Source of the DNA: Malacoraja senta
Lineage: Eukaryota
Direction of reading: 5' to 3'
Length of the DNA stretch: 64,000 nt
Assembly (NCBI GenBank): GCA_038087875.1
Contig: CM075989.1
Span: 4,960,001-5,024,000, forward strand
Below, one piece after another: positions 1 through 64,000 of this stretch (the first letter of the stretch is position 1; each line of letters starts with the position of its first letter). The notes beneath the pieces were generated by a model. That model was not told the origin of the DNA, did not search any database, and saw nothing but the letters and a program-made list of their open reading frames with translations. The position numbers and the translations under genes are program-made.

Positions 1-323
1 CAATGCAGAACTAAACTATTTACAACAATAGCAATCTACATTGCCTGAATTTAATTTTGTCTCGAGATACAGCATGGAAGCAGCCCACTTCAGGCCTTTA
101 AGTCTGAAGAAGGGTCTCGTCCCGAAACGTCACCTATTCCTTTTCTCCAGAGCTGCTGTCTGACCCGCTGAGTTACGCCAGCTCTTTGTGTCTGTCTTCA
201 GCCCATCAAGTCCACACCAATCTGTAAGAAAGAACCGCAGATGCTGGTTTAAATCGAAAGTAGACACAAAATGCTGGAGTAAATCAGCGGGACAGGCAGC
301 ATCTCTGGAGAGAAGGAATGGGT

Positions 324-351
324 GACGTTTCGGGTCGAGACCCTTCTTCAG
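324..351 (-). ncRNA. Minimal type I hammerhead ribozyme motif in a Penelope-tail element
   Basis: Reverse complement is CTGAAGA-A-GGGT-CTCG-ACCC-GAAA-CG-TC: CUGANGA box, stem II, GAAA box, palindromic ACGU remnant of helix III, and GUC cleavage triplet. Confidence 0.7.
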
Positions 352-566
352 ACTTCAGTTGTCTGAACCCACTTGTTCACAAGGAGAAAGTACTAACTCC
401 GTACGGACAGCAACCGTGGTGAGGATTGAACCCGGGTCTCTGGGGCTGTAAGGCAGTAGCTCTACCACTGCGCCACCATGACGCCCAGATGTATTTCAAG
501 TCAAACAGATTAAAATTCTGAGCAGGCCAGAAAGCATTTGTAGAAAGAAAAACAGAATCAATATAT

Positions 567-1066
567 AGAAACATAGAAACATAGAAAATAGGTGCAGGAG
601 TAGGCCACTCGGACCTTCGAGCCTGCACCGCCATTCAATATGATCATGGCTGATCATCCAACTCAGTATCCTGTACCTGCCTTCTCTCCATACCCCTTGA
701 TCCCTTTAGCCACAAGGGCCACATCTAACTCCCTCTTAAATATAGCCAATGAACTGGCCTCAAGTACCTTCTGTGGCAGAGAATTCCACAGATTCACCAC
801 TCTCTGTGTGAATTTTTTCTCTCTCATCTCAGTCCTAAAAGACTTCCCCCTTATCCTTAAACTGTGACCCCTTGTTCTGGACTTCCCCACATCGGGAAAA
901 ATCTTCCTGCATCTAGCCTGTCCAACCCCTTAAGAATTTTGTAAGTTTCTATAAGATCCCCCCTCAATCTTCTAAATTCTAGCTCCTATACTCAAATCCT
1001 TTTGCTATGAATTCTAACATACCATTCACTTTCTTCACTGCCTGCTGCACCTGCATGCCTACTTTC
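567..1066 (-). mobile_element. CR1 LINE 3' end
   Basis: SRTRGHSLRIRG...QRVVNLWNSLP motif and ctatgttt tail repeats. Confidence 0.88.
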
Positions 1067-1315
1067 AATATTAAATTGATGATCCTGTCTGACCTGCTAA
1101 GTACTTTCCACTATTTCTGTTTTTAATTCAGATATCTAGTTATCTGCCTTGTGAATTTCTTGAAGAAACACGACAGGTTTTCAGATCTTTTTGATCATCT
1201 TGAAAATTAGTGTGTTTTGTTAAAATTGTAAAAAGTGTTGACTTGAAGAATATATTACTTCTAGATGCAATTGAGCAAAATCCTAAATTATTCCCGACCT
1301 GGATTCCATCTGGGG

Positions 1316-1620
1316 GGGCGGCACGGTGGCACAGCGGTAGAGTTGCTGCTTTACAGCATCTGAGACCCGGGTTCGATCCTGACTACAGCTGCCGTCTGTA
1401 CGGAGTTTGTACGTTCGCCCCGTGACCTGCGCGGGATTTCTCCGGGTGCTCTGGTTTCCTCCCACATTCCAGAGAACTTACATGTTTGTAGGTTAATTAG
1501 CTTCGGTAAAATTGTTAAATTGTCCCTAGTGCGTAGATAGTGTGTTTGGAGATCGCTGGTCGGCATGGACTCAGTGGGCCCAAGGGCCTGTTTCAGCGCT
1601 GAATTAAAATGAATAAAATT
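1316..1620 (+). mobile_element. tRNA-derived V-SINE (HE1-like), representative full copy
   Basis: Pol III A box (TGGCACAGCGG), B box (GGTTCGATCC), V-domain GGTTTCCTCCCACA and CR1-like tail. Further copies at about 2744-4010 (split), 14685-15000, 16914-17245 (x4), 25165-25445(-), 29436-29732, 32363-32645, 35305-35601(-), 52071-52370, 63025-63340(-) and 63735-64000. Confidence 0.88.
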
Positions 1621-1931
1621 AAAACATTGGATCACCATCTGGAATACAGTTGCGATCACATACTCTCTGATATTCTGTTGTAGAAATTATGGGATTTACC
1701 TATTTATTTCAATTCTGTCTATTTTTTCTTGGTATCTCCATGCATTGCATGCTCTGTTGTGTGGTTTTAACAGGAGATTAGTTTAACATGGCATCATATT
1801 AATGCAGGAGATTGTGGGCCACATGGCCTGTTCCTGTGCTATACTGTTCGATGTAAAAACAAGCAACTGCAGATGCTGGTTTACAAAAAGGAACACAAAA
1901 TTCTGGAGTAACAGTGGGTGAGGTCTTCAGA

Positions 1932-2612
1932 TTTCTTCCCAATCCTGTGTGTGTTATCCAAAAACGGAAGGTTTTCCTTGTGCTCAATGTTGAAAGTCTC
2001 CTTTATCATTTTAGAAGCATATTTCATAACATTCTCTCCTGCTTGTCCTTCCGGCAAACCAACAATTCGTAAATTCAATCGACGGCTTCTGTTTTCCAGG
2101 TCCATATTTGAAGTCTTATATTGCTGAAGTGCTCGAGTATTTTCATTCATTCTCCGGTCCAGTTTTTCAATCTTCAAATCTCTCTCCTGGCCCAGGGTTT
2201 GCAAGTTATCAATTTGTTCCTTTTGTTCATGGTTCCTCTTGTAACATAGACAGCTTTCCTTCAACTTCCTTCAATTTGCTCGAAACTCCTTTCACCATTT
2301 CTTCCAAACGGCCAAATCATGTTTTCATTTCATTTTTCAGTTCATTTTTCAATTCATCGTTCATTTTCGATATTGCTTCTATGACACTAGAGTCAGAAGC
2401 TGTGGCTGTGGTTGTGGCTTTCCCCTGTTCCTTCCTTGAGGAGCCTCCTTTCCTTCTTGTCTCCATCCTTTTCACGATTAAGGCGTGTAAAAGTGTTATC
2501 AACACTTTATGAAAAGTTAGACCGTGCCTTGAAGTCAAGTAGTCACGAGTAACATTGAAAGAGTGGTAAGTGAAGGTTAAAAGTTAAGGGAGCAAATGAA
2601 CTGCCACTAGGA
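1932..2612 (-). mobile_element. L1-clade LINE 5' fragment (5'UTR + ORF1 N-terminal part)
   Basis: Coiled-coil-like segment followed by DLENRSRRLNLRIVGLPEG (L1 ORF1 RRM entry motif) and THRIG. Flanked by a 12-bp direct repeat GAGGTCTTCAGA. Confidence 0.82.
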
Positions 2613-61521: not shown

Positions 61522-62170
61522 TTCTTGCTATTGAGGGAGTGCAGCGTAGGTTTACAAGGTTAATTCCCGGGATGGCAGGACTGTCATATGCTGAGAGAAT
61601 GGAGCAGCTCGGCTTGTACACTCTGGAATTTAGAAAGATGAGAGGGGATCTCATTGAAACATATAAGATTGTTAAGGGTTTGGACCCGCTAGAGGCAGGA
61701 AACATGTTCCCGATGTTGGGGGAGTCCAGAACCAGGGGCCACAGTTTAAGAATAAGGAGTAAGCCATTTAGAACGGAGACGAGGAAACACTTTTTCTCAC
61801 AGAGAGTGGTGAGTCTGTGGAATTCTCTGCCTCAGAGGGCGGTGGAGGCAGGTTCTCTAGATGCTTTCAAGAGAGAGACAATAGACAATAGACAATAGAC
61901 ATTAGGTGCAGGAGTAGGCCATTCGGCCCTTCGAGCCAGCACCGCCATTCAATGTGATCATGGCTGATCATCCGCAATCAGTACCCCATTCCTGCCTTCT
62001 CCCCATATCCCCTGACTCCGCTATTTTTAAGAGCCCTATCTAGCTCTCTCTTGAAAGCATCCAGAGAACCCGCCTCCACCACCCTCTGAGGCAAAGAATT
62101 CCACACTCACCACTCTCTGTGTGAAAAAGTGTTTCCTCATCTCCGTTCTACATGGCTTACTCCTTATTCC
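61522..62170. mobile_element. Tail-to-tail CR1 fragments next to the gap (+ 61522-61878; - 61879-62170)
   Basis: Plus-strand LAIEGVQRRFTRL...DAFKRE, then a reverse-oriented 3' end starting with (acaatag)n. Confidence 0.85.
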
Positions 62171-62384
62171 AGTTATTCCGAAAAAAAATCGCATCTCCTT
62201 CGAGGTAGGAAATTGAAATAAGTTTCCCCCCCCCCCCAGGACGGGTTTGGAGGGATATGGGCTAAACACAAGCAGGTGGGACTAGTGTAGATGGGACATA
62301 TTGGCTGGTGTGGGCATGTTGGGCCGAAGGGCCTGTTTCCACCCTGTCTGACTCTACAACAGGACATCGGAAAAGATCATCCAG

Positions 62385-62585
62385 TAACCATGTCTGGGGA
62401 GCCAGCGCTTTGCTGAAGACTGACATTGGTGTTTAAATTCACCATTGGCTTCAGTGCATCAGGACAGCTGAAGACCAACTCAGAGAAAGAGTGTTTGACG
62501 GCCAAGACCTCAAACCCAGGACAACCTCATGGACTTCCTCAATACATCTGAGACCTGGACCTCAAAGCACCATGGAGGTTCTGGC
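62385..62585 (+). mobile_element. Ancient RTE-clade LINE remnant
   Basis: Degenerate translation KTDIGV*IHHWLQC...QLRERVFDGQDLKPRT...SETWT resembles the RTE RT C-terminal region. Confidence 0.55.
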
Positions 62586-62870
62586 AATTTAGATTAGCAT
62601 TAACTTTGGAGATACGGCAATGAAACAGGCCCTTCGGCCCACCGAGTCCATGCCAACCATCCTCGATCGAGTTCCTTCAAAGGATCTTCTACAACCAATG
62701 TCGATGTTTTGATTTTCTTTATTCATAAAACCATACCTCAGGAGCTGAGCCATGGGATATTTTGTCTGTCACCATTCGGTAGTTCCACCGTAAGTCATAG
62801 AAGTAAACGCAGCGCAGACGAGGAAACTCTGAGATTAATTTGATTATTTCACGTTGGTTCCTCTCTCTAG

Positions 62871-62981
62871 GATTCCTTTCCTGCTCGGTTTAAAGCGGTA
62901 CACTTTATCCATCAGCCTTGGTACTTCACCACCACCTACAACATGGTCAAGCCTTTCTTGAAGGGCAAACTGCTGGAGAGG
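62871..62981 (+). CDS. RLBP1: RLBP1 penultimate coding exon (CRAL-TRIO/Sec14 domain): [37 protein letters not shown]
   Basis: Acceptor ctctctctag, donor AGG|gtaagt, 111 nt in phase 0/0. Nearly identical to human [37 protein letters not shown]. Not in the ORF track. Confidence 0.96.
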
Positions 62982-63434
62982 GTAAGTATGGAACTAGAGG
63001 GCACCGAATGATCCTTTAAACACTTTTAGTTTAGTTGAGAGATACAGTGCAGAAACAGGCCCTTCGGCCCACCGAGTGCGTGCCGACCAGCGATCCCCGC
63101 ATATTAACACCATCCTACAAACCCTAGGACAATTTTACATTTATACATTGATACCAAGCCAGTTTACCTACAAACCTGTACTTCTTTGGGGTGTGGGGGG
63201 AAACCCGGAGATTTGGGAGAAAACCCTGCTCAGATCACGGGGAGAACGTACAAACTCCGTACAGACAGCACCCGTTGTCGGGATCGAACCCGGGTCTCTG
63301 GCGCAGCAAGCGTGTAAGGCAGCAACTCTACCGCTGTGTCCCCCTTTTACAACCCATCGCTCACACTTAAATCCCCATTAAGATTTGCTCCATAATGTGC
63401 AGATATACCTTCAGAAATTCAGAAATATCTCAGT

Positions 63435-63462
63435 CTGAAGAAGGGTCTCGACCCGAAACGTC
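63435..63462 (+). ncRNA. Minimal hammerhead ribozyme motif, sense to the RLBP1 pre-mRNA
   Basis: Exact CTGAAGAAGGGTCTCGACCCGAAACGTC on the + strand, ~450 nt downstream of the 62871-62981 exon. Confidence 0.7.
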
Positions 63463-64000
63463 ACCCATTCCTTCGCTCCATAGATGCTGCCTCACCCGCT
63501 GATTTTCTCCAGCATTTTGGTCTACCTACCAAATATATCAGAGGTGTGAATGTCGACAGTTCTCAGGTGCATATCGCAACTGGTGCTGGCTCAGAGTTTA
63601 ATGTTACAGGATGCTAGGATGAGGGGAGCAGGATGTTTGCTAGGTTTCAGCGTGCAGAAACTTGAAGATGGGGGGCTGGTCAGGAGAACAGTGGCGGGAG
63701 CAAGTCCGCAGATGTTACAAACTGGAAGAAAAGAGCCGACACAGTGGCGCAGCGGGTAGTACTGCTACCTCACAGCGCCAGAGACCAATCCTGACTGCGG
63801 GTACTGTCCGTGTGGAGTTTGCCCGTTCTCCCTGTGGCTGCCTGGGTTTTCTTCAGGTGTTCCGGTTTCCTCCCACATCCCACAGACGTGTGGGTTTGTA
63901 GGTTAATTGGCTTCTGTAAATTGTCTCCAAGTGTGTAGGGAGTGATATGAAAGTGGACCAATGTAAACCTTGGTGGGCTGAAGGGCCTGTTTCCTTGCTG

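What the first reader, a model, noticed from the sequence alone, without database searches (positions are those of the whole stretch)
104..63530. Dense family (~40 copies in 64 kb) of short Penelope-tail elements carrying a minimal hammerhead ribozyme
Seen: a 100-150 bp unit recurs throughout the window (about 40 full or partial copies counted by eye). Its conserved core CTGAAGA-A-GGGT-CTCG-ACCC-GAAA-CG-TC is exact at 324-351(-), 36029-36056(-), 48802-48829(-) and 63435-63462(+). The same motif sits ~200 nt downstream of the GIY-YIG ORF stop of the Penelope-like element (26262-26289), which shows its origin. Established: this is the CUGANGA / stem II / GAAA / NUH hammerhead core, and Penelope-like elements carry minimal type I hammerheads whose helix III is reduced to a short palindrome (here ACGU) and which cleave as dimers. 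Inference: the ribozyme-bearing tail has become a very high-copy non-autonomous retroelement in this lineage, resembling a retrozyme or a SINE but lacking a Pol III head. Caveat: helix I looks very short (agt/acc), so activity is unproven.
Basis: partly seen in the sequence, partly recalled or inferred. Interest (0 to 1): 0.8.

Follow-up and report, generated by a model that had tools for sequence, protein, structure and literature searches.

The report
Penelope ribozyme stubs pepper skate DNA
About a tenth of this stretch of likely skate DNA is made of 100-140-base stubs of a Penelope-type jumping gene that carry a known minimal hammerhead-ribozyme motif; they are likely abortive copies of the start of the parent's RNA rather than a self-propagating new element, and their mirror-image pairs would show the parent copying itself onto both DNA strands at once.

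Summary
A profile search finds 64 segments (11% of the window), about 42 distinct insertions, with the motif at the stated coordinates. The unit is the ribozyme-plus-tail end (pLTR) of a Neptune-type Penelope-like element (PLE); three ORF-bearing remnants are in the window. The motif fits the published minimal PLE hammerhead, but helix I is 2 bp, only 8 of 27 cores are intact, a competing hairpin wins in folding, and activity is untested. The retrozyme/SINE reading is not supported: no head-to-tail arrays, no shared head, and only 2 of 53 5' ends lie at the cleavage site. Instead 24 of 53 5' ends fall at the ribozyme's 5' edge, and 3' ends fall at two sites about 35 nt apart. Twelve insertions are head-to-head pairs (8 with target-site duplications); 10 of 11 readable pairs have one long and one short arm. 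Best reading (0.6): run-off cDNAs primed internally near the 5' end of parent PLE RNA, often on both DNA strands. Solo minimal hammerheads, inverted ends and one-sided tails are published PLE traits; the sharp 5' stop and long/short rule make the mechanism testable.

The parts
26486..27103 (-). PLE remnant 1: Cys linker (C-x-C-x-x-C-x-x-C) and GIY-YIG endonuclease, frameshifted and interrupted; Neptune-type
   Evidence: Pfam GIY-YIG E=0.001, below cut-off; 78% to a Leucoraja erinacea protein; 38-49% to full-length 750-950 aa PLE ORFs
26294..26485 (-). Pyrimidine-rich 3' UTR of remnant 1
   Evidence: 86% to 43186-43278
26260..26291 (-). Minimal type I hammerhead motif: C3=26289, extra A after A9, 4-bp stem II, GAAA, CG palindrome, UC; predicted scissile bond 26262/26261; 2-bp helix I
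   Evidence: anatomy per PMC4209133; cleavage untested
26197..26261 (-). Downstream pLTR part ending at the proximal (short) 3' end
26665..26763 (-). B-subfamily stub inserted in the endonuclease coding region; starts at the ribozyme edge, short duplication at its ends
   Evidence: 6-bp repeat; joint 26665-26764 skipping 98 nt in 47 same-species contigs = empty site
22375..22803 (-). PLE remnant 3: endonuclease C-terminus, UTR, decayed ribozyme, long tail; repeated 4 times in the 2,199-bp tandem
44985..46780 (-). PLE remnant 2, older and interrupted: end of RT, linker, endonuclease, UTR
6458..6675 (.). Head-to-head pair, long arm + short arm; short arm reaches further 5'; 11-bp TSD with 1 mismatch
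31179..31483 (.). Head-to-head pair, long + short; short arm extends into UTR; no TSD found
31623..31810 (.). Head-to-head pair (B), long + short, symmetric centre; no TSD found
33953..34158 (.). Head-to-head pair, long + short; short arm reaches further 5'; 8-bp repeat flanking
35758..35889 (.). Head-to-head pair (C), short + long, 9-bp TSD
37025..37218 (.). Head-to-head pair, long + short, 14-bp TSD
37392..37531 (.). Head-to-head pair, short + shorter arm (the exception); no TSD found
39298..39485 (.). Head-to-head pair whose left end runs into an N gap
47259..47421 (.). Head-to-head pair (B), long + internally deleted short arm, 16-bp TSD
56990..57159 (.). Head-to-head pair (B), long + short, 13-bp TSD with 1 mismatch
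57221..57403 (.). Head-to-head pair, short + long, 14-bp TSD with 1 mismatch
59341..59510 (.). Head-to-head pair, long + short, 12-bp TSD
100..196 (+). Solo stub, short end, starts at AGT before the core
225..355 (-). Solo stub, long tail, intact core
6300..6395 (-). Solo B stub, identical over 90 nt to the 26665-26763 copy
48697..48838 (-). Solo stub, long tail, intact core, 8-bp TSD
63430..63527 (+). Solo stub, short end, intact core, 11-bp TSD with 1 mismatch overlapping the TCAG start
35960..36171 (-). UTR-bearing copy with intact core, short end
34753..35020 (+). UTR-bearing copy, deletion in the ribozyme, long tail
43041..43290 (-). UTR-bearing copy, decayed core, long tail

Best explanation
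The stubs are the ribozyme-plus-tail end of a Neptune-type Penelope-like element, and they are likely dead-end run-off copies made by the parent's own reverse transcriptase-endonuclease. Shown: inserts end at two 3' sites about 35 nt apart, start mostly at the 5' edge of the hammerhead, carry 8-16-bp target-site duplications, span the predicted cleavage site, and often come as head-to-head pairs of one long and one short arm. Inferred from the anole PLE work: the protein nicks both target strands and primes internally on uncleaved RNA at the pLTR-ORF junction, about 100 and 135 nt from the ribozyme. Inferred here: the RNA begins at about AGU just before CUGA (an initiator-like TCAGT; consensus recalled), so cDNA runs off there. 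Priming both strands, one at each site, and joining the two cDNAs by short microhomology gives the mirror pairs. Stubs lack the sequence downstream of the priming site, so they would not template new copies. The ribozyme is inherited cargo, predicted to be held off by a competing hairpin and decayed in most copies.
For: 3' ends: 25 of 54 at +90..+115 and 24 of 54 at +128..+142. 5' ends: 24 of 53 at -9..+7 of C3, a stop rate of 6.7% per base against 0.67% downstream and 0.62% upstream (Fisher p=3e-13); 2 of 53 at the cleavage site, the background rate. TSD score >=7 in 8 of 12 pairs against 2 of 150 random controls. 10 of 11 readable pairs are long+short (p=0.006); both arms type to the same subfamily in 11 of 12. 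In 3 pairs the short arm carries the extra 5' sequence, which fold-back copying of one cDNA would not give. ATT follows the long end in 6 of 26 (p=0.007), the anole PLE's preferred nick motif. Same-species contigs show loose ends at 26291/26293 and strand-switch joints at 26291-26293. No shared exon or head upstream of 12 edge-starting copies. PMC11167929: both strands cut and extended, two internal start sites bound the tail, RNA needed to +172 while priming is at +111-118, ribozyme cleavage not needed.
Against: No RNA 5'-end data: table 6 lists no pile-up of starts, and the one raw-read run is fragmented poly(A) RNA from another organism, 6% read. No full-length element is in the window and no genome is held, so the pLTR-ORF junction was not seen. 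The biochemistry is from a Poseidon-clade element, not Neptune. The edge count depends on the profile knowing the UTRs: only about 12 of the 24 edge stops are pinned by a TSD or an opposite arm, and loose-end consensuses show that some copies run on into other UTRs. No B or C copy in the window has a recognised UTR. Head-to-tail joints exist in the same-species contigs (21, 36, 36, 24 and 46 contigs in five rows, of 379,810 laid). TSDs are clear in only 3 of 19 solo copies (score >=7). In 3 other pairs the long arm carries the extra 5' sequence.
Confidence: 0.6

Rival explanations
1. One or more dedicated non-autonomous master RNAs, starting at the ribozyme and reaching some way into the ORF start, are mobilised in trans by the PLE protein; the stubs are a PLE-dependent SINE-like family.
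For: Sharp shared 5' edge; unit depth 25-58 times the endonuclease depth; no recognised UTR on B or C copies in the window; two B copies identical over 90 nt; non-autonomous PLEs such as MRC1 are described (PMC8557442 passage).
Against: A-type stubs match the ORF-linked pLTR (99% over 91 nt between 48700-48835 and 26203-26293). Loose ends behind the B start are partly UTR-like in two other organisms (agreement 0.40-0.46). No shared head or B box. The 0-of-6 against 7-of-25 UTR contrast for B/C versus A is too small to carry weight (counted by eye).
Confidence: 0.25
2. The 5' pile-up is not an RNA end but a stall or processing point: the RT drops off after the ribozyme hairpin, or a 3' splice site (CAG|U) or a protein-bound dimer ends the template. 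Mirror pairs come from fold-back self-priming followed by staggered endonuclease resolution.
For: A conserved hairpin spans the core (94% of cells paired in 20 copies). In D. virilis the intron ends at helix I. Self-priming and endonuclease resolution are the published proposals for inverted ends and tails. Several pairs have palindromic centres.
Against: The cDNA hairpin is weak, -5 to -7 kcal/mol. No shared exon upstream. No minus-strand intron joint among the 15 listed rows (1,184 rows not shown). Three pairs have the extra 5' sequence on the short arm.
Confidence: 0.11
3. A non-LTR retrozyme: the ribozyme cuts tandem transcripts into monomers that circularise and are reverse-transcribed.
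For: Hammerhead motif with dimer palindrome; some head-to-tail joints in same-species contigs; retrozymes derived from pLTRs are reported, including in one chondrichthyan genome (bioRxiv 10.64898/2026.07.22.740005).
Against: No head-to-tail unit array among about 42 insertions; fixed PLE-type ends rather than permuted or multimeric ones; no 5' enrichment at the cleavage site; helix I is 2 bp and stem II has about zero probability in the monomer fold.
Confidence: 0.04

Closest known systems
Minimal hammerheads (min-HHR) of metazoan PLEs (Cervera and de la Pena 2014, PMC4209133)
   Same: Type I core, extra base between 9 and 10.1, G10.1-C11.1, palindromic 15.2-16.2; mostly solitary and attributed to truncated PLEs; opposite-strand pairs noted; found in fish Neptune and Poseidon elements.
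   Different: Helix I is 2 bp (4-5 bp in the described schistosome families, 2 bp in D. virilis) and stem II 4 bp. Density is far higher: at least 8 intact cores in 64 kb against thousands per genome reported. No shark or skate term in the 2 supplementary files searched (one file not searched).
Poseidon element PAc of Anolis carolinensis (Frangieh et al. 2024, PMC11167929)
   Same: Two 3' ends bounding a 30-40-nt tail about 100-135 nt after the ribozyme, uncleaved template, ATT nick preference.
   Different: Neptune-type linker here. The parts read do not describe a 5' pile-up at the ribozyme edge or a long/short rule in inverted pairs.
Inverted pLTR architecture of EN+ PLEs (PMC3846280; PMC8557442 Fig. 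2 legend)
   Same: Head-to-head inverted 5'-truncated copy, tail often at one end only, TSD of 8-10 bp, microhomology junctions.
   Different: Here the whole insert is only 130-300 bp with no ORF, and such pairs are 12 of about 42 insertions.
Non-LTR retrozymes (PMC7229834; bioRxiv 10.64898/2026.07.22.740005)
   Same: Non-coding, type I hammerhead, PLE-related.
   Different: Those are head-to-tail tandem repeats, in PMC7229834 with canonical ribozymes and circular RNAs; these are dispersed solo or head-to-head inserts with PLE ends.
Non-autonomous Chlamys PLEs such as MRC1 (PMC8557442)
   Same: Similarity to the 3' end of an autonomous PLE.
   Different: Those form pLTRs and head-to-tail insertions; independent propagation of the skate stubs is not shown.

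Membership tests
EN+ Penelope-like element (Neptune/Nematis type) | C-terminal GIY-YIG endonuclease | tested here: met
   (weak Pfam hit)
EN+ Penelope-like element (Neptune/Nematis type) | CX2-5CxxC zinc-finger-like linker before the endonuclease | tested here: met
   CNCRRCNTC in frame 26956-27219; feature; same motif in relatives
EN+ Penelope-like element (Neptune/Nematis type) | Placement in the Neptune clade by RT phylogeny | not tested
   No usable RT core in the window and no named reference set; Neptune versus Nematis rests on published fish distribution
EN+ Penelope-like element (Neptune/Nematis type) | Optional 30-40-nt 3' tail | tested here: met
   25 short and 24 long of 54 3' ends
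EN+ Penelope-like element (Neptune/Nematis type) | Inverted 5'-truncated copy and TSD | tested here: met
   12 pairs, 8 with TSD
EN+ Penelope-like element (Neptune/Nematis type) | Full-length ORF preceded by a tandem pLTR | not testable with these tools
   No genome held; no full-length close relative among the best 150 hits
Minimal PLE hammerhead | CUGANGA, extra base, stem II with G10.1-C11.1, GAAA, palindromic 15.2-16.2, UH | tested here: met
   8 of 27 core-spanning segments intact; stem II 92.5% of cells paired in 20 copies
Minimal PLE hammerhead | Helix I of 4-5 bp | tested here: not met
   2 pairs hold (17 of 20 and 15 of 19 cells); the third pairs in 1 of 19
Minimal PLE hammerhead | Core more conserved than flanks across subfamilies | tested here: inconclusive
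   0 of 11 core columns vary among 4 group majorities against 4 of 21, 15 of 67 and 9 of 33 elsewhere; right direction, small numbers; covariation reached by 24 of 500 shuffles
Minimal PLE hammerhead | Self-cleavage as dimer or with protein | not testable with these tools
   Needs an assay; predicted monomer fold is a competing hairpin
Rfam hammerhead families | Score at gathering threshold | tested here: not met
Non-LTR retrozyme | Head-to-tail tandem units, each with a ribozyme | tested here: not met
   None in the window; a minority of such joints in same-species contigs
Non-LTR retrozyme | Circular monomer RNA | not testable with these tools
   No same-species raw RNA run was offered
SINE | Pol III head (tRNA, 7SL or 5S derived; A and B boxes) | tested here: not met
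   0 of 12 units with an A or B box; upstream flanks share at most 9 nt (box consensus recalled); no tRNA gene in the window
Non-autonomous PLE family | Copies give rise to further copies independently of ORF-bearing masters | not testable with these tools
   Needs genome-wide subfamily analysis

The most novel reading that the evidence does not exclude
Skates make a dedicated short RNA that begins at a hammerhead held off by a conserved hairpin. A PLE protein dimer primes it at two sites on both strands of one staggered cut, writing mirror-image stubs into roughly a tenth of the genome. That would be a ribozyme-headed, PLE-driven SINE analogue in a vertebrate, and its pairs would be a genomic record of how inverted pLTRs arise.
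Probability: 0.2. Interest if true: 0.7.

Novelty: new member of a known kind. Interest (0 to 1): 0.42.

Why it matters
The origin of the inverted ends and one-sided tails of Penelope-like insertions is an open question: self-priming on antisense RNA and endonuclease resolution were proposed, and two internal RT start sites were shown in vitro only in 2024. These miniature inserts are short enough to read whole and so abundant that one genome would supply very many pairs. The long/short rule, and which arm carries the 5' excess, separate two-strand priming from fold-back. The sharp 5' stop predicts the element's RNA start to within a few bases. If the 11% density holds genome-wide, this is a major repeat class of skates and a source of long hairpin RNA in introns (inference). 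It is not a new kind of ribozyme or element.

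Tried and rejected
Whole-genome count: no genome held. Motif scans of viral and metagenome contigs: 0 hits. Rfam: no hammerhead hit; the miRNA-type matches are the inverted pairs or microsatellites. Search for a full-length chondrichthyan ORF to see whether the unit encodes its N-terminus: full-length hits are only 32-47% identical to the query, and unit translations match the 158 fetched proteins only weakly (E about 1e-3), so no answer. 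Cleaved RNA as template: rejected, 2 of 53 5' ends. Spliced template with a shared first exon: no shared upstream word over 9 nt. cDNA-hairpin termination: too weak to prefer. Two candidate pairs were dropped from the 14 examined: 24191-24357 (arms from different families, about 30 nt apart) and 36772-36835 (local duplication). Searches used wrong helix I columns and are superseded. The first TSD search had a null inflated by repeats and is superseded. Antisense excess of first mates over the endonuclease region in X21 (about 1.8-fold) was not interpreted. No covariance model was built; the nhmmer profile served for counting. Literature: 8 searches listed no paper describing this skate family, a 5' pile-up at the ribozyme edge or twin priming in PLEs; one search returned mostly hammerhead-shark papers. 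Dfam and Repbase could not be searched, so the family may already be named there. Lunse et al. 2017 is not held. Three look-ups of earlier findings returned nothing.

Full report
Observation. The motif is exact at the four places named and has 15 matches within 3 mismatches, against none expected. A profile built from 20 window copies finds 64 segments covering 11.3% of the window. An exact 2,199-bp tandem at 15190-23988 inflates this; 56 segments remain after collapsing it and 53 after removing three pieces. With 11 head-to-head pairs among them, that is about 42 insertions. Rfam does not recognise the motif. The host is likely a skate: the best protein hit of the endonuclease fragment is from Leucoraja erinacea at 78%. 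No genome is held for the window.

Parent element. At 26486-27103(-) lie a cysteine linker and a GIY-YIG endonuclease, 38-49% identical to full-length PLE ORFs. The CX2-5CxxC linker marks Neptune and Nematis elements (PMC8557442, passages); no RT tree was made. The stop is followed by a UTR of about 190 nt, the hammerhead and about 65 further bases. Two more ORF-bearing remnants exist, at 22375-22803 and 44985-46780. A B-type stub sits inside the first remnant, and 47 same-species contigs show the empty site, so a stub inserts as a discrete unit. Reads and contigs laid on 26150-27050 give a unit peak 25-27 times the highest endonuclease bin and 53-58 times the mean. These are not copy numbers, and one run is RNA of another organism.

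The ribozyme. The anatomy matches the minimal PLE hammerhead of Cervera and de la Pena (PMC4209133, parts 1-2 of 4 read): extra base after A9, G10.1-C11.1 and a palindromic CG. That paper already reports that most such motifs are solitary, probably truncated PLEs, with some close pairs on opposite strands, and that cleavage is absent in monomers and low in dimers. Here stem II is paired in 92.5% of cells, helix I has two pairs and the third fails in 18 of 19. Among four subfamily majorities, 0 of 11 core columns vary, against 15 of 67 downstream; the four changes inside the motif fall in loop 2, a stem wobble, H17 and 1.1. This is the expected direction but too few sites to be proof. Only 8 of 27 core-spanning segments are intact. 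The predicted monomer fold pairs the purine-rich core with the pyrimidine run after the cleavage site, leaving stem II at about zero probability. That hairpin is paired in 94% of cells (18-30 of 500 shuffles reach the observed values, so it is suggestive only). Activity is untested.

Ends. The 3' ends fall in two groups, 25 near +100 and 24 near +135 of 54. This is the PLE tail, which in the anole element PAc lies between two internal RT start sites (PMC11167929, parts 1-2 of 4 and passages). ATT, PAc's preferred nick motif, follows 6 of 26 long ends (p=0.007). The 5' ends pile up at the ribozyme's 5' edge: 24 of 53 within -9..+7 of C3, a tenfold higher stop rate than on either side, while 2 of 53 lie at the cleavage site. 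About 12 of the 24 are pinned by a TSD or an opposite arm; the rest could continue into UTRs that the profile does not know. Same-species contigs also show loose ends and strand switches at 26291-26293, though some of those continue into other UTRs. Twelve edge-starting copies share no upstream word longer than 9 nt and no B box within the unit. Templates were therefore mostly uncleaved and had no common head or first exon.

Mirror pairs. Twelve insertions are head-to-head (2 of 14 candidates dropped). Eight have TSDs of 8-16 bp, against 2 of 150 controls. Ten of the 11 with both outer ends visible have one long and one short arm (p=0.006). Both arms type to the same subfamily in 11 of 12. By eye, the extra 5' sequence is on the short arm in 3, on the long arm in 3 and about even in 4, and junctions often share 2-4 bases. 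Inverted 5'-truncated copies and one-sided tails are known PLE traits (PMC3846280 and PMC8557442, passages; PMC8969392). They were explained by self-priming or endonuclease resolution. Fold-back from a single cDNA cannot put the tail on one arm and the 5' excess on the other without later trimming. Priming on both strands can, and PAc cuts and extends both strands in vitro.

Mechanism. Shown: end positions, TSDs, pair asymmetry and PLE origin. From PAc: internal priming at two sites on uncleaved RNA, with RNA needed to +172 while priming is at +111-118. Inferred: the same holds for this Neptune-type element; priming at the pLTR-ORF junction near the RNA's 5' end gives 100-140-nt cDNAs that run off at about AGU; two-strand priming gives the pairs; and stubs, lacking the downstream signal, are dead ends. 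D. virilis Penelope has an internal promoter with an initiator, but there the start is about 120 nt upstream of helix I with an intron between (PMC2377424 passages), so the start site proposed here has no direct precedent. I give this reading 0.6, a dedicated non-autonomous master 0.25, a stall or fold-back model 0.11 and a retrozyme 0.04. Against my reading: no RNA start pile-up was seen (a weak test), no B or C copy in the window has a recognised UTR, head-to-tail joints exist in a minority of contigs, and only 3 of 19 solo copies have a clear TSD.

Comparison and novelty. It works like a PLE insertion in miniature and is a member of the EN+ PLE pLTR/min-HHR kind. It fails the defining tests for non-LTR retrozymes (tandem units; PMC7229834 passages; bioRxiv 10.64898/2026.07.22.740005 parts 1-3 of 5, supplements not seen) and for SINEs. 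PMC6765202 (passages) covers the dimer model; Lunse et al. 2017 could not be read; PMC12602865 added nothing. Eight searches listed nothing on this skate family, the 5' pile-up or two-strand priming in PLE genomic inserts. Dfam, Repbase, subscription journals and the PAc supplement (Fig. S2 plots genomic copy ends and may show the same 5' edge) were not seen. Verdict: a new, very abundant member of a known kind, with two regularities that make the PLE insertion mechanism testable. Interest 0.42.

Noticed in passing
window 15190-23988: Exact 2,199-bp repeat, about 4 copies with 0 mismatches; may be a very recent duplication or an assembly artefact.
   Followed up: partly
window 8566-10849 (-): DIRS-like retroelement remnant: RT, RNase H/methyltransferase-like and tyrosine recombinase frames (family label inferred from the domain set).
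   Followed up: no
window 36772-36835: Two ribozyme-only pieces, one inverted and one direct, both start near AGT and stop at the position of the cleavage site, next to a full stub; could be copies of a 5' cleavage product, but it is one old locus.
   Followed up: partly
window 23402-23460 (-, in the tandem) and 24313-24357 (+): Older related family; the first copy shows remnants of a longer helix I (CAGTT / CACTG), suggesting the young families shortened it.
   Followed up: no
window 225-356 and 47260-47378 (-): The AGAUGCUG stretch pairs with the second of two CCAGCA repeats in predicted folds; each repeat lies shortly before one of the two 3' ends, so alternative folds may set the two priming sites.
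   Followed up: partly
window 26491-27050: In RNA run X21 first mates favour the minus strand about 1.8-fold over the endonuclease region but not over the unit; may mean antisense-biased transcription.
   Followed up: no
window 49480-50049 (+) and 3222-3791 (-): hAT dimerisation-domain fragment and a zf-RVT (L1-like) fragment.
   Followed up: no
window 43357-44981: 1.6-kb (CA)n array between PLE remnant 2's UTR and the UTR-bearing copy at 43041-43290; whether they are one element was not resolved.
   Followed up: no
window 16667-16700 (in the tandem) and 36967-36996: Two different stubs are followed by similar flanking sequence, suggesting insertion into the same unknown repeat.
   Followed up: no
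window 39098-39297 and 61322-61521: Two 200-base N gaps; the first abuts a mirror pair, the kind of structure that breaks assemblies.
   Followed up: no
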